Source: a virus
Lineage: Duplodnaviria; Heunggongvirae; Uroviricota; Caudoviricetes
Reading direction: 5' to 3' (one strand)
Length of the DNA: 43,461 bases
Virus record (IMG/VR): IMGVR_UViG_648276647_000004
Span: 1 to 43,461 of that record
The stretch's first letter is position 1. Each line of letters starts with the position of its first letter. Shown here piece after piece: positions 6,001-9,000 of this stretch. A program made the position numbers.

Positions 6001-9000
6001 TGTTCCTGATGGTGAGTATCGAACTTCCGGGTCTTGTCCTACCCGACCAAGGATAATCACCTTATTTACGCCTCTGCTTGCCATTTATGCCGCCTGTTTT
6101 AGTTCGTTAACTCTGATGTTCATTACCTGAACGCATTTAGCCTGCGCCTCCTCGTTGCCAGCCATTAATTGCCAGTCACGCTGATAACGCTCGATGAGTT
6201 TTTTCTTGTCAGTTTCTGTTGACGCATAATCGCTGAAGTCTTTCAGGATTTGTTCGCAGTCAACCGATGGAGATTTCTGGTTGGTATTTTCTGGTGATGG
6301 TTTGTTATCTGATGCTGGGATTGCCCATCCCGGCAGCGATGGAGGGAGCCAGTAAAATCCTGTTCCATCCTTGAGTTTTGCCCTGTGCCATCCCTGCTTT
6401 TTATCGAGAGATGTTTGTGCAAAACCTTCCTCAAGGTTATACAGATACCGACCGATTCCCCACTGAACGGCAGCGCGCTTCATTGCACCGGAACGACCGC
6501 CTTTGACGGCTTCTACCTGCGTGTTTTCAGCAGCATCCCATTTGGTTACCCATTCGGAATCAATCTTGATTGATATGCCGCATTCAACTCCGCCGTTGTT
6601 GGGAATATCGCGGTATTCATTGCGCCATCCTGCTTTGCCGCAAACATCGTCCAGGCGCTTCATGATTGCCCGGTTCGTGACATAAGCCAGCACCATAGCC
6701 CACACCTTGCCATCGCGTGTTTTACCGCTTTGCTGTATTCGCCATTCGATATCTTCAGGGCTGAATGGCTCATCGAATTTGTTCAAATCCATAATTCACC
6801 TCAGAATGGACACGGCCCAAGGAAATAACGCTGATTTAATACTTCGACTCGGGACAAATTAAGGCATACCCGCATTCCTTCGCGGTCGCCATTATGGCGA
6901 TACCAGAGAGCTTTCTGCGTGTACATGCGTCTCTGTAACTTGCTCTCCTTCACTGTGGTTGCAAGTGACATGAATATCTCCTTCGTTACCGATTAATTCT
7001 TTCATCTGACGAATGAATTCTTCGTCTGACCAGTTATCCGTAAAACTCATGGACGGCCTTGTTGTTTCAAAATATCCCAAAGCTTTTCGAGCAAACTTTT
7101 CATTCTTGGTTGTTTAAAGTCTGCTCCGGTTAAAATATTTTTTCGTGAATGCTGTACCGATAAAATCGGGTTGAAAGGGCGAACCGATGCCGCCCCTGCA
7201 ATAGCGAACTGTTGCATAGGATGCTCCTTCTGTTTGATTGCATAACGAAAACGCCTCGAGTGAAGCGTTATTGGTATGCATATAAAAAAGCCCCCACACT
7301 GGAGGGCAAAGAAGATTTCCAATAATCAGAACAAGTCGGCTCCTGTTTAGTTACGAGCGACATTGCTCCGTGTATTCACTCGTTGGAATGAATACACAGT
7401 GCAGTGTTTATTCTGTTGTTAGTGCCAAAAATAAAGGCCGACTATGCGGCCTGAAATTACTTAACCAATGATGCTGCATATTCGATAAGGTAAAGCTTTG
7501 GAGCCAGCCAAATTTTTAACCAAGTCATATTGGTTACTGCACCAATAATAAAAATCCCCCACAGAGCCAAAACTCCAACCAATGGCATGATAAGAAGATT
7601 AATATCACCTTTGCTATCCCAAACCATTGTCGGCCTGTATTTGGGATTTCCCCTCTCCCATGAGTATCCTTCATCACCGATTTTACCTGTCTCAACTCTT
7701 TGGCACTGCTTCTTCATAAACCAGAAAACCAGTGGGATTGTTAGAATGGCTATTAATGTTTTAATCAGACTGTCAACCATATTCCATAGCAGCAACTGAT
7801 GAACAACATCAGGAATCTGTGCCTGGCTAAATGAAACAGCCGCGTCTATTCCATTACTGGCTTTTTGCAGTAGTTCTACGAGAATCTTGTTTGCTTGTTC
7901 TTCCATATATCACCTTGATTGTAATAAGCATGAAATTATTTACGGCTAAAAAATAAAGGCCACCATCAGGCAGCCTTGTTGTAAATGTTGCAGGTATCAA
8001 GTAAGTAATTAGATGGAGCGCCATAAATTATGAATTCATCGTTTGTCGGGTCCATCTCCATCTCTTGGCCTATTGCCATTCTTGCGTCAGTGTCATCAGC
8101 GGCGAAGCATAAAACAGCCCACGCACCCATTGTTTTAAAAAGAACTGCAATTGGCTGTGGTTTTACTGAATTTGCGTTAGCGCGAAAATCACAAATCGCA
8201 CTTTCATGAAACTCCATATCTCACCTCAAATAAGTGGTTTGCTGCGAAAGTAAATGCGCTTAAGTTACCTGTTATTTATCCCACCAAGTTCCGTATCTAT
8301 CTATCCAGTTACACCAATCATCGACACTCCATTTTGTTGTGTCGCATTTTGGCAACTGGCATGAATATCTACCTTCTTTGTAAAGTCGGCGTTTGACTTT
8401 CTTGAGCATGGCTCACCTCAATCGTAATAAGCTGGAATTGATTTTCCGCGTTGCTTCTGGCGACCAACACAAGTCACGCCCATTTCACTGCGTGGCTTGC
8501 GGTAGTAAATACGGCTCTGTTTACGCTCGACTTCTTCTGCCTTCCTGCAGCGAAGGCTTCCTAGTGATATTGCTTTTTCAGAAAGGCTTAAACGCTTTCT
8601 TGGGGCTTCCTGAACAGGCTCCTCACTGTCTGTGCCGAAGATAGAATCAATGATGTTACAGATAGCATCACGCTCAATAGCCAGCTTTCTGCGCCGCTCA
8701 TGACGGCGAGTTTTGGCATTTCCTGCGAATGTTGATTTCCCGTACACGATTACCGTCATGATATTTTCCTCATGTGAAATGGCTTTGGTGGTGATGCGCC
8801 AGATGCTGATCTTCTGGTTGCTGTCGTTGCAGCTGCAATTCACATCACCGCCAAACCCATCTCGTTTGGTATCTGTTTGCGCTTTGTCAGCGCCCCATTG
8901 AAGTTAAAGAGCCTGCCAATCTGTTCCGTTTGGCTACCAGCGTCCTGCTGATGTGACAATAATGAACCAATAGTTCGACATTATCAAGAACTATTGGTAC

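What the first reader, a model, noticed from the sequence alone, without database searches (positions are those of the whole stretch)
7370..7975. Terminator-insulated membrane-protein gene in the sieB position, plus a 9-bp inverted repeat
The 149-aa two-TM protein gene (7457-7906) is flanked by hairpin/T-run structures on both sides, suggesting an independently expressed exclusion-type gene between N and cIII. A perfect inverted repeat GTGTATTCA-N10-TGAATACAC at 7370-7397 is unexplained (protein binding site or RNA structure).
Basis: inference. Interest (0 to 1): 0.35.

Follow-up and report, generated by a model that had tools for sequence, protein, structure and literature searches.

The report
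Membrane-protein cassette beside PreS small RNA
This stretch of a lambda-like E. coli prophage holds an uncharacterised phage membrane-protein gene inserted as a self-contained cassette, and the "unexplained" inverted repeat is a conserved RNA hairpin at the start of PreS, a recently described phage small RNA that boosts the host's DNA-replication clamp.

Summary
Both observations are real, but they are two separate things. (1) 7457-7906(-) encodes a 149-aa, two-TM inner-membrane protein of a large uncharacterised phage family (phrog_3054). It has no similarity to SieB, SieA or any Pfam, NCBIfam, PADLOC or PDB entry. It forms a 521-bp cassette (RBS, ORF, own terminator) inserted between the terminator of the 83-aa gene and the next element of the pL operon. 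Relatives lacking it (HK106, mEp234) show the empty site. No promoter travels with it, and homologues also occur in virulent phages. Public RNA-seq of the 99%-identical Gally prophage shows background expression in LB but about 8-fold more RNA than N in DMEM, so some N-independent expression is likely. Its function is unknown; exclusion is plausible but untested. (2) The 9-bp repeat is the core of a 14+2 bp RNA hairpin (7365-7402, minus strand). Its 3' foot is nucleotide +1 of a PreS/LPR1 homologue (7368->7284), identical to lambda PreS over 74 nt including the seed and ending at the tL2a terminator. At least four stem-sequence classes keep the pairing (9 of 16 pairs compensatory). The preprint describing PreS does not discuss the hairpin; I infer it marks the PreS processing site and the 3' end of the upstream mRNA. 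Overall ordinary to moderately interesting.

The parts
7948..7977 (-). Intrinsic terminator of the upstream 83-aa gene (7966-8217, phrog_2471). Stem 7977-7956 overlaps that gene's stop codon, followed by a T-run. It carries the left copy of the 13-bp direct repeat AAAAATAAAGGCC (7948-7960, + strand).
   Evidence: terminator scan; in HK106 and mEp234 the same terminator follows the same 83-aa gene and is joined directly to the PreS hairpin region. Searches give the repeat.
7907..7947 (-). Leader of the 149-aa gene. It is a decayed copy of the 3' end of an N gene (GCTTATTACAATCAAGGTGATAT against the window's N end GCTTATTACGATTGAGGTGAG), with the SD AAGGTGA at 7910-7916. No sigma-70-like promoter was detected here.
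   Evidence: sequences; upstream contexts in 82 loci: only the last 15-25 nt travel with the gene; no promoter hit in the spacer; the nearest is 8054-8027 inside the 83-aa gene.
7457..7906 (-). Gene for a 149-aa inner-membrane protein (phrog_3054 family). It has a conserved acidic N-terminal helix continuous with TM1 (about 45-64), a variable basic loop, TM2 (about 105-126), and a conserved C-terminal amphipathic helix WLKIWxAPKLYLIEYAASLxK. Predicted topology is N-out/C-out.
   Evidence: 517 close and 2553 representative homologues; AF2, pLDDT 85.6; K+R 2.29 just after TM1 against 0.41 just before it; N-tail net charge -3.5.
7427..7452 (-). The gene's own intrinsic terminator (stem 7452-7435, T-run to 7427), linked to the gene in all 82 related loci examined. 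It carries the right copy of the direct repeat AAAAATAAAGGCC (7427-7439), 521 bp from the left copy.
7365..7402 (-). 5' arm 7399-7386, loop CAAC 7385-7382, 3' arm 7381-7368, outer pairs G7402-C7365 and C7401-G7366. The last nucleotide of the 3' arm (G7368) is PreS +1.
   Evidence: folds; four stem classes; 93.2% of cells paired, 9 of 16 pairs with changes on both sides, 0 of 500 shuffles reach the score; slid controls 25-52%; lambda primers defining lpr1 +1 and the deletion end point.
7284..7368 (-). Homologue of lambda sRNA PreS (LPR1). It is identical to lambda over its first 74 nt, including the seed (about 7317-7334, TTGTTCTGATTATTGGAA). It ends in the tL2a-type terminator (stem 7307-7290, U-run 7289-7284).
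   Evidence: 95% identity to lambda 33920-34087; PreS location between ral and ea10, 3' end at tL2a, sequence from primers; predicted duplex with the dnaA-dnaN junction -44.7 kcal/mol against -22.6 +/- 4.4 for shuffles; Sf6 record annotates the same stretch as a tL2A homologue plus 'bsq4 boundary sequence'.
7250..7269 (-). A further terminator-like hairpin in the cIII leader, homologous to lambda 33458-33522. cIII follows at 7047-7217(-). The lambda gene ea10 is absent here.

Best explanation
Two adjacent but separate elements of the N-antiterminated early-left (pL) operon of a mosaic lambdoid E. coli prophage.

(A) The membrane-protein cassette. A 521-bp accessory cassette (RBS, 149-aa ORF, own intrinsic terminator) was recombined in between the terminator of the 83-aa gene and the PreS region, using the shared terminator tail GGCCTTTATTTTT. 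Shown: it is a real, widely conserved gene for a two-TM inner-membrane protein of an uncharacterised phage family. It carries no promoter of its own in most contexts, so in lytic growth it is a delayed-early gene read from pL through the terminators by N-modified polymerase. Shown for the 99%-identical Gally copy: RNA is at background in LB but about 8-fold above N in DMEM, which implies some extra N-independent transcription or selective RNA stability in lysogens. Inferred (about 35%): the conserved N- and C-terminal helices face the periplasm, and the protein acts at the inner membrane to protect the infected or lysogenic cell from further phage DNA entry, in the manner of Imm, SieA or gp15. 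The remaining probability goes to some other early membrane function.

(B) The hairpin and PreS. The inverted repeat is the core of an RNA hairpin on the pL-sense transcript. Its 3' foot is nucleotide +1 of a PreS/LPR1 homologue. Known from lambda: PreS is an Hfq-dependent sRNA made only in the lytic cycle, ends at tL2a, activates dnaN translation, represses alaS and aids phage DNA replication. Inferred (about 50%): because no promoter precedes it and different ORFs end immediately 5' of the hairpin, PreS is cut out of the read-through pL transcript like a 3'-UTR-derived sRNA. The hairpin would position that cut (RNase III in the stem, or RNase E at its foot) and would remain as a protective 3' stem-loop on the upstream mRNA.
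For: Cassette: HK106 and mEp234 have the 83-aa gene, its terminator and then the PreS hairpin with nothing between. The window has the extra 521 bp flanked by AAAAATAAAGGCC repeats. The terminator is linked to the gene in 82 of 82 loci, whereas upstream contexts fall into at least 6 classes sharing only the RBS. In HF4s the gene starts 8 nt after N. The leader is a decayed N 3' end.

Protein family: 517 close homologues and 2553 cluster representatives at E<=1e-3. AF2 pLDDT is 85.6. Positive-inside bias is seen across the family. Homologues sit in P22-like virion operons, an HK97-like head-tail junction, upstream of terS, and in opposite orientation between terL and portal in Serratia. They also occur in phi92-like, N4-like Vibrio and jumbo Ralstonia phages.

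Expression: Gally S1 Table, with 99% identity of the whole promoter-proximal region.

PreS: 95% identity to lambda 33920-34087. The lambda sRNA is described in 10.1101/2024.10.31.621285 and in the review PMC12197685. Primers give +1 = GAGCAATG..., the 3' end and the seed. The element occurs in 2239 of 5426 complete E. coli genomes.

Hairpin: four stem classes keep the pairing, and a U.G pair is conserved in six of the seven representative hairpin variants. The pL-sense strand folds better in nearly all variants. The formal count gives 93.2% paired, 9 of 16 pairs compensatory, covariation 0.477 against 0.157, and 0 of 500 shuffles reaching it. Different ORFs end at GAATAA directly 5' of the hairpin. 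No promoter-like site lies upstream.
Against: No experiment addresses the protein's function, and nothing links it to exclusion except analogy. Its presence in virulent phages fits a lytic-cycle role at least as well. The topology rests only on the positive-inside rule. The extra RNA in DMEM could reflect stability of a hairpin-bounded mRNA fragment rather than a promoter. It comes from one study, and I did not locate a convincing promoter. The PreS preprint does not report how the 5' end is made, and no RNase or 5'-RACE data were found. +1 is taken from their cloning and deletion primers and the ~88-nt band. The covariation alignment was fitted to the structure by a covariance model, and the sequence classes are few and related, so the shuffle statistics overstate independence. 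Whether PreS is actually made from this particular phage is untested.
Confidence: 0.65

Rival explanations
1. One reading: a SieB-like abortive-infection or exclusion gene with its own promoter, expressed constitutively from the prophage. The inverted repeat would be a protein-binding (operator-like) DNA site regulating it.
For: The gene lies between N and cIII, is terminator-bounded and has low G+C. RNA is above N in the Gally lysogen in DMEM and macrophages. Homologues behave as movable accessory genes.
Against: There is no SieB, SieA or PADLOC similarity. Lambda sieB is on the opposite strand. Expression is at background in LB. No promoter travels with the gene. The repeat lies downstream of the gene and its terminator, shows G.U-dependent strand asymmetry and compensatory changes, and abuts PreS +1. 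It is also present unchanged in phages that lack the gene (lambda, HK106).
Confidence: 0.12
2. The 149-aa protein serves the phage's own lytic development rather than protecting the host. Examples would be an early membrane factor that remodels or anchors something at the inner membrane, modulates host envelope or division functions, or tunes lysis timing. Any expression in lysogens would be incidental.
For: Homologues occur in strictly virulent phages (phi92 gp220, N4-like Vibrio phages, three copies in Ralstonia jumbo phage RsoM2USA) next to thymidylate synthase, ATPase, nuclease and DUF2800 genes. In HF4s and several IMG/VR loci the gene follows N directly as part of the pL transcript. In P22-like contigs it sits inside the virion operon, in one case overlapping the upstream ORF by 4 nt.
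Against: It is dispensable in the sense that close relatives lack it (HK106, mEp234, lambda). Its position varies greatly, and it occurs in opposite orientation in Serratia. Expression is condition-dependent and N-independent in Gally. No similarity to holins, spanins, Kil or other known lytic-cycle membrane proteins was found.
Confidence: 0.3
3. The hairpin region is primarily a DNA-level 'boundary sequence' (bsq4 of the Sf6 annotation). On this reading it is a conserved linker that serves as a homologous-recombination joint for exchanging gene modules, with no RNA function of its own.
For: The Sf6 record annotates 24156-24268 as 'bsq4; boundary sequence'. Mosaic break-points cluster at its edges: BLAST hits start at query positions 22, 33, 44 and 67. 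Hairpin classes and PreS body classes reassort. In L165 and L148 two hairpin copies flank an inserted ORF.
Against: A pure recombination linker needs sequence identity, not preserved base pairing. Yet four different stem sequences keep a perfect helix, with a U.G pair conserved in six of seven representative variants that would be C.A on the other strand. The helix foot coincides with the 5' end of a functional sRNA. The two roles are not exclusive.
Confidence: 0.2
4. The 9-bp inverted repeat is a chance occurrence.
For: There are 4 such perfect repeats in the window against 2.4 +/- 2.0 expected.
Against: It is near-invariant in 389 phage records and 2239 E. coli genomes, extends to 14+2 pairs, and covaries.
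Confidence: 0.01

Closest known systems
PreS (LPR1), Hfq-dependent sRNA of phage lambda (Silverman et al., bioRxiv 10.1101/2024.10.31.621285; reviewed in PMC12197685)
   Same: Window 7368->7284(-) is identical to lambda PreS over the first 74 nt, including the seed. It has the same tL2a-type terminator and U-tail and the same place in the pL operon upstream of cIII. The flanking hairpin is identical to the lambda sequence that ends the homology arm of their lpr1 deletion primer.
   Different: The terminator stem has one substitution (GGGGGC against GAGGGC), and the run after it is TTTTTT rather than GATTTTTT. The upstream neighbour is the 149-aa gene instead of ral, and the downstream neighbour is cIII instead of ea10. 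The hairpin, its covariation and a divergent P22-type PreS body are not discussed in the preprint as far as I could read.
Lambda tL2a terminator and Sf6 'bsq4 boundary sequence'
   Same: Same DNA. The Sf6 record marks the terminator as 'homology to phage lambda; tL2A' and the adjacent 113 bp as bsq4. The window matches it at 94%.
   Different: Those annotations treat the stretch as a terminator plus a recombination linker. The sRNA and hairpin reading adds an RNA function.
3'-UTR-derived, processing-dependent Hfq sRNAs of enterobacteria (e.g. CpxQ, SroC; from general knowledge)
   Same: There is no own promoter. The sRNA shares the terminator of an upstream transcription unit, and its 5' end would be made by endonucleolytic cleavage.
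   Different: Here the parent transcript is an antiterminated phage operon, and a covarying hairpin sits exactly at the cleavage point. The processing enzyme is unknown.
SieB (lambda, P22; Pfam PF14163)
   Same: A small membrane protein encoded between N and the ral/cIII region of lambdoid phages.
   Different: No sequence similarity. Lambda sieB is transcribed opposite to pL. SieB is an abortive-infection protein with an internal Esc start (from general knowledge); nothing comparable was seen here.
Inner-membrane injection blockers: P22 SieA (PMC10883804), T4 Imm, HK97 gp15
   Same: Small phage-encoded inner-membrane proteins, some carried as accessory insertions. This is the functional analogy behind the exclusion guess.
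   Different: SieA has 3 TM helices and the motif FxRYPxEAxxFNK, neither of which is present here. No sequence or fold similarity to anything in PDB or BFVD outside the protein's own family.
Morons (Juhala/Hendrix definition; used in PMC9928086)
   Same: A discrete extra gene relative to close relatives, with its own terminator, lower G+C and variable location across phages.
   Different: No promoter of its own could be shown. Expression is at background in LB in Gally. Homologues occur in virulent phages.

Membership tests
PreS/LPR1 sRNA | Sequence homology to lambda PreS from +1 (GAGCAATGTCGCTCGTAACT...) to the terminator | tested here: met
   Identical over the first 74 nt; about 95% identity over lambda 33920-34087.
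PreS/LPR1 sRNA | Intact seed that pairs with the dnaN leader (mutations M1/M2 and the 18-nt seed deletion map here) | tested here: met
   TTGTTCTGATTATTGGAA is unchanged at 7317-7334. Predicted duplex with the dnaA-dnaN junction is -44.7 kcal/mol against -22.6 +/- 4.4 for shuffles, 0 of 300 as low.
PreS/LPR1 sRNA | Rho-independent terminator with U-tail (Hfq proximal-face module), equal to tL2a | tested here: met
   Stem 7307-7290 plus TTTTTT; homologous to the tL2A annotation in Sf6.
PreS/LPR1 sRNA | Location in the early-left operon, sense to pL | tested here: met
   Minus strand, between N (8418-8843) and cIII (7047-7217).
PreS/LPR1 sRNA | Accumulates as ~88- and ~68-nt Hfq-bound RNAs in the lytic cycle; raises DnaN | not testable with these tools
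   Shown only for lambda.
SieB superinfection exclusion family | Homology to PF14163 / lambda or P22 SieB | tested here: not met
   No Pfam hit at E<=0.1 for the protein or for 99 family members. BLASTP against lambda SieB gives E=0.27 over 13 residues.
SieB superinfection exclusion family | Own transcription unit between N and ral, opposite to pL (lambda arrangement) | tested here: not met
   The gene is co-oriented with N. Lambda sieB is on the other strand.
SieB superinfection exclusion family | Aborts lytic growth of superinfecting phages | not testable with these tools
   No phenotype data found.
P22 SieA-type injection blockers | Three TM helices and the cytoplasmic motif FxRYPxEAxxFNK | tested here: not met
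   Two TM helices. The motif is absent from the sequence and the family consensus. SieA features are taken from PMC10883804.
Known anti-phage defence proteins (PADLOC-DB 2.0) | Match to any defence-system HMM | tested here: not met
   0 families at E<=1.
Moron (autonomously expressed accessory insertion) | Extra DNA relative to otherwise collinear relatives | tested here: met
   HK106 and mEp234 lack it at the same junction. The 521 bp are flanked by 13-bp repeats.
Moron (autonomously expressed accessory insertion) | Own terminator | tested here: met
   7452-7435, linked to the gene in 82 of 82 loci.
Moron (autonomously expressed accessory insertion) | Own promoter | tested here: inconclusive
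   No site in the 48-nt spacer. One weak site (9 of 12 matches) at 8054-8027 lies inside the 83-aa gene. In most contexts the gene abuts the preceding stop codon.
Moron (autonomously expressed accessory insertion) | Transcribed from the repressed prophage | tested here: inconclusive
   Public data for the 99%-identical Gally copy: background in LB (18.6 against a median of 15.6; cut-off 78), but log2 about 7.0 against N about 4.0 in DMEM 6 h.
Moron (autonomously expressed accessory insertion) | Base composition differs from the flanks | tested here: met
   G+C 0.402 against 0.462 for the window and 0.484 for N.

The most novel reading that the evidence does not exclude
The covarying hairpin plus the invariant GAGCAATRTCGC joint could be a portable cassette end for the lambdoid early-left operon. 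Each accessory ORF would carry its own stem variant as a 3' stem-loop. The same structure would define, by RNase cleavage at its foot, the 5' end of PreS. Its conserved flanks would serve as the recombination joint through which cassettes, including the 149-aa gene's neighbours, are inserted, duplicated and swapped. That would tie mRNA 3'-end protection, sRNA biogenesis and module shuffling to one element. A divergent P22-type PreS still targets the dnaN leader.
Probability: 0.2. Interest if true: 0.6.

Novelty: new member of a known kind. Interest (0 to 1): 0.35.

Why it matters
It removes an 'unexplained' feature. The repeat belongs to the PreS locus, so this prophage, like about 40% of complete E. 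coli genomes, is predicted to carry an sRNA that reprograms host dnaN during lytic growth. The hairpin's covariation gives a concrete, testable handle on how PreS is cut out of the pL transcript, which the describing preprint leaves open. It also shows that PreS has a diverged P22-type form that its >=92%-identity BLAST survey would have missed. The 149-aa protein belongs to a very large family found in temperate and virulent phages of Enterobacterales, Vibrio, Pseudomonas and Ralstonia. The family has no annotation at all and gives a confident two-TM model. It is a reasonable candidate for a functional screen, but nothing here shows what it does.

Tried and rejected
- Rfam 15 at gathering and at E<=10 gave only tRNAs and chance hits (mir-137, STnc100 at E=6.2). 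PreS has no Rfam family.
- I first suspected the EHEC anti-sRNAs AgvB/AsxR or the Pas/STnc100 sRNAs. These lie at the PR'/Q late-region moron site, not in the pL operon, so I rejected them.
- A full-text search for 'tL2a' returned nothing relevant. The 'boundary sequence' search gave no paper discussing bsq4. The search for pL-operon RNase III processing sites found no primary data, although its hit list did include the review that led to PreS.
- Protein searches: Pfam, NCBIfam, PADLOC and PHROGs gave only the unannotated phrog_3054. The PDB sequence profile gave nothing (best E=1.3). Foldseek against PDB gave 0 hits, and against BFVD only family members.
- The first AF2 model, built from 23 close homologues, was poor (pLDDT 66). 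The model from 99 diverse homologues was good.
- SieB and SieA comparisons were negative.
- The Sf6 experimental-evolution paper concerns nin-region deletions only and says nothing about gene 34.
- The MAFFT alignment put class-C hairpins one column out of register, so covariation was counted on a covariance-model alignment instead.
- I looked for a sigma-70 promoter for PreS or for the 149-aa gene by scan and by eye and found none convincing.
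Full report
**Setting.** The window is a mosaic lambdoid prophage or phage of E. coli. Its best matches are E. coli phages HF4s and JEP4, Stx phages and E. coli chromosomes. On the minus strand it carries a classical early-left operon:
- cI-type repressor, 10134-10841
- a DUF2335 membrane protein, 9199-9732
- N with a P22-type arginine-rich motif, 8418-8843 (PF25694, E=8e-26)
- a 45-aa DUF5484 gene
- an 83-aa gene, 7966-8217 (phrog_2471)
- the 149-aa gene, 7457-7906
- cIII, 7047-7217 (phrog_550)
- then Kil-region, RecT-like and SSB genes.

**Checking the observation.** The ORF and its SD (AAGGTGA, 7910-7916) are there. Minus-strand hairpin/T-run sites lie at 7977-7956 and 7452-7435, and two more follow at 7307-7290 and 7269-7250. 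That is 7 sites in 2.4 kb against 2.6 +/- 1.8 in shuffles. The perfect 9-bp repeat is at 7370-7397. It is only the core of a longer imperfect repeat (22-nt arms, 82%). As RNA on the minus strand it gives 14 uninterrupted pairs, two of them G.U, plus two outer pairs. By itself a perfect 9-bp repeat with a 3-12 nt spacer is not unusual: 4 in the window against 2.4 +/- 2.0 in shuffles.

**The 149-aa gene is a cassette.**
- *Empty site in relatives.* Phages HK106 and mEp234 have the same 83-aa gene and the same terminator (AAGGCTGCCTGATGGTGGCCTTTATTTTT), joined directly to GGCATAAATAACAGAATAAACACTGCAC..., the sequence that in the window follows the 149-aa gene's terminator.
- *The insert.* The window has an extra 521 bp bounded by the 13-bp direct repeat AAAAATAAAGGCC (7427-7439 and 7948-7960, + strand). 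The insert is RBS, ORF and an intrinsic terminator.
- *What travels with the gene.* In 82 related loci from IMG/VR and GenBank the terminator always accompanies the gene. The upstream context falls into at least six classes that share only the last 15-25 nt.
- *Contexts with no gap.* In several of them, and in phage HF4s, the gene starts about 8 nt after the stop codon of N.
- *A relic leader.* The 'leader' in the window (…TTTCATGCTTATTACAATCAAGGTGATAT-ATG) is a decayed copy of the 3' end of N (…TTCCAGCTTATTACGATTGAGGTGAG…). The -10-like TACAAT is therefore a relic of Tyr-Asp codons. No -35 element and no scan hit lie in the spacer.
- *Consequence.* The upstream 'insulating' terminator belongs to the 83-aa gene. 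In lytic growth the gene must be read from pL by N-modified polymerase.

**The protein.** It has 517 close homologues, all 'hypothetical', in Escherichia, Salmonella, Citrobacter, Cronobacter, Pantoea, Serratia and others. It has 2553 cluster representatives at E<=1e-3 in the 1.8-billion-protein library.
- *Searches for a known relative.* None of 99 diverse members hits a Pfam or NCBIfam model meaningfully. There is no PADLOC hit and no PDB sequence hit. There is no similarity to lambda SieB. The hallmarks of SieA (3 TM, FxRYPxEAxxFNK) are absent.
- *Structure.* With the deep alignment AlphaFold gives a confident model (pLDDT 85.6). One long helix (2-68) runs from the conserved acidic N-terminus through TM1. 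A variable loop follows, then TM2 (106-124) and a conserved amphipathic C-terminal helix. Foldseek finds nothing in the PDB and only family members in BFVD.
- *Topology (inference only).* Across the family, K+R is concentrated just after TM1 (2.29 in 8 residues against 0.41 before it), and the N-tail is net -3.5. By the positive-inside rule this predicts N-out/C-out, with the conserved ends in the periplasm.

**Where the family lives.** Homologues at 40-58% identity sit in several different places:
- between gp4 and gp10 in P22-like virion operons
- between head-completion and tail genes of an HK97-like phage
- just upstream of the small terminase
- in opposite orientation between terL and portal in a Serratia prophage.

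This is the behaviour of a movable accessory gene. However, homologues also occur in virulent phages: phi92 gp220 and its relatives, N4-like and other Vibrio phages, Pseudomonas phages, and three copies in a Ralstonia jumbo phage. There they lie among early and DNA-metabolism genes. The function therefore cannot be specific to lysogens.

**Expression in a lysogen.** E. coli LF82 prophage Gally carries the 83-aa gene, terminator, spacer and 149-aa gene start at 99% identity, and 7200-8000 at 97.8%. Misson et al. 2023 (PMC9928086) re-analysed LF82 RNA-seq.
- In overnight LB the gene (GALLYPH_30) is at prophage background: 18.6 against a median of 15.6, with a moron cut-off of 78. The authors called Gally devoid of morons.
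- Their S1 Table also shows GALLYPH_30 at log2 7.12/6.99 in DMEM 6 h. In the same samples N is 3.88/4.14, the downstream gene 4.83/4.87, and replication and late genes about 3.5-4.
- It is at about 7.0 in macrophages at 1 h and at 6 h, while N falls from 6.7 to 4.5-5.1.
- The ratio to N thus changes from about 1 to about 8, which is hard to explain by pL read-through alone.

I take this as moderate evidence for condition-dependent, N-independent RNA from the repressed prophage. The source could be a weak promoter (the only candidate is 8054-8027, inside the 83-aa gene) or selective stability of a hairpin-bounded fragment. 'Exclusion' remains pure analogy.

**The inverted repeat.** Window 7279-7445 is 95% identical to lambda 33920-34087, the ral-ea10 intergenic region. 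The Sf6 record annotates the same stretch as a tL2A-homologous terminator plus 'bsq4 boundary sequence'. It occurs in 389 phage records and in 2239 of 5426 complete E. coli genomes, never annotated.
- *PreS in lambda.* A 2025 review (PMC12197685) led me to the preprint of Silverman et al. (10.1101/2024.10.31.621285). Lambda makes an Hfq-dependent sRNA, LPR1, renamed PreS, 'between ea10 and ral'. Its 3' end is tL2a. It is ~88 nt with a ~68-nt processed form and is seen only in the lytic cycle. It activates dnaN translation, represses alaS and helps phage DNA replication.
- *Defining +1.* Their primers define it: +1 is the G of GAGCAATGTCGCTCGTAACT, the 3' end is …CCTCCAGTGTGAGGGCGATTTTTTA, and the seed is around TTGTTCTGATTATTGGAA. 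The upstream arm of the full lpr1 deletion ends …GAGTGAATACACG.
- *Mapping to the window.* PreS is 7368->7284(-). It is identical to lambda over 74 nt and differs only in the terminator. G7368, which is PreS +1, is the last nucleotide of the hairpin's 3' arm and pairs with C7399.

**The hairpin is a conserved RNA structure.** Anchoring on the invariant GAGCAATRTCGCTCGTAAC in IMG/VR contigs gave 33 distinct hairpin segments in four stem classes:
- lambda-type: CUGUGUAUUCAUUC/GAGUGAAUACACGG
- P22/ST104-type: UAAUGACCAUU/AGUGGUCAUUG
- a third: UAUAGCAGAUU/AGUCUGCUAUG
- a fourth: AAUGCGGA/UUCCGCAUU.

Registering pairs by distance from PreS +1 shows pairing preserved with different bases at offsets -2 to -9. 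The loop-proximal pairs A-U and U-A are invariant and U.G is kept in six of seven representatives; the base pairs involving PreS nucleotides +1, +3 and +4 are nearly invariant. On a covariance-model alignment of 22 distinct sequences, 93.2% of cells pair. Nine of 16 pairs show changes on both sides (56 cells). The covariation score is 0.477 against 0.157, with 0 of 500 shuffles reaching it, and slid controls give 25-52% pairing. The caveat is that the alignment was fitted to the structure and the classes are few. The pL-sense strand folds better than its complement in almost every variant because of G.U pairs. This favours an RNA role over a DNA or protein-binding role.

**How the hairpin probably works (inference).** No promoter-like site precedes the hairpin. 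In many phages a coding sequence ends at …GAATAA immediately 5' of it. PreS appears only when pL is active. PreS is therefore most simply a processing product of the read-through pL transcript, like 3'-UTR-derived sRNAs. The hairpin would set the cut at its 3' foot, either by RNase III within an approximately 17-bp helix or by RNase E just 3' of a stem. It would then stay on the upstream fragment as a 3' protective stem-loop. The preprint contains no mention of a native PreS promoter, RNase E/III, cleavage or the stem-loop, so this part is open. I give it about 50%.

**Rivals.**
- *DNA-level 'boundary sequence'.* This role has support: mosaic break-points at its edges, reassortment of hairpin and body classes, and two hairpin copies flanking an inserted ORF in L165 and L148. 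It does not explain the preserved pairing. The two roles may coexist.
- *Full SieB-like reading.* This fails on homology and strand.
- *Lytic-cycle role for the protein.* This is about as likely as exclusion.

**Verdict.** The repeat is explained by a known, recently described sRNA locus, with a new structural detail. The gene is a new, unannotated member of the general class of phage accessory membrane-protein cassettes. Interest is modest.

Noticed in passing
L095 (phage ST104) about 1505-1609; also L051, L035, L126, L101, L104; a third body type in L172/L192: A diverged 'P22-type' PreS body (…AACCAAACGAGGACGACGACTCGTTCTGGTTAATCGAAAAATCATCCC…) sits upstream of gene 17 in P22-like Salmonella phages. 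It keeps extensive complementarity to the E. coli dnaA-dnaN junction (predicted duplex -43 kcal/mol against -22 +/- 4 for shuffles). The >=92%-identity survey in the PreS preprint would have missed it.
   Followed up: partly
L165 6544-6601(-) and L148 7782-7835(-), about 270 nt upstream of the regular hairpin+PreS: A second hairpin copy of a different stem class, plus only the first 12 nt of PreS (GAGCAATATCGC), is followed by an inserted small ORF. That ORF ends at GAATAA just before the regular hairpin. Two hairpin copies therefore flank an inserted cassette.
   Followed up: partly
L035 5500-5647; L016 5945-6092: Hairpin classes and PreS body classes reassort. L035 has a lambda-type hairpin with a P22-type body, and L016 has a class-C hairpin with a lambda-type body. 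This implies recombination at the invariant GAGCAATRTCGCTCGTAAC joint.
   Followed up: no
window 7307-7340 against the E. coli dnaA 3' end / dnaN leader (sequence reconstructed from primers): PreS is nearly continuously complementary to about 30 nt of the dnaA-dnaN junction (GACTTGTTCTGATTATTGGAAATCTTCTTTG against the reverse complement GACAATGTTCTGATTAAATTTGAAAAATCTTCTTTG). That is far more than a usual seed and looks like a captured antisense copy of host sequence.
   Followed up: partly
window 9199-9732(-), with terminator-like site 9195-9174: A 177-aa DUF2335 predicted membrane protein (phrog_3996, category 'moron') lies between the cI repressor and N, where lambda has rexAB. This is another candidate prophage-expressed accessory gene.
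   Followed up: no
window 7966-8217(-) and 8272-8409(-): The 83-aa gene (phrog_2471, VT2-Sakai p20-like) with its own terminator is likewise a cassette, present or absent among relatives. The 45-aa DUF5484 gene starts 8 nt after N, in the same slot that the 149-aa gene occupies in HF4s.
   Followed up: partly
window 17523-17594 and 17603-17675 (+): Two adjacent tRNA genes (Rfam tRNA, 55 and 61 bits) lie in the phage.
   Followed up: no
Gally prophage of E. coli LF82 (S1 Table of PMC9928086): Several Gally accessory genes rise in DMEM or macrophages without lytic genes rising, although the paper scored Gally as having no morons from LB data alone. They are GALLYPH_13/14, 15 (Mnt), 17, 20/21, 30 and 52.
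   Followed up: partly
window 7250-7283(-) against lambda 33458-33522: The lambda gene ea10 is missing. The PreS terminator is joined directly to the cIII leader with its own hairpin, as in HK106 and Gally.
   Followed up: no
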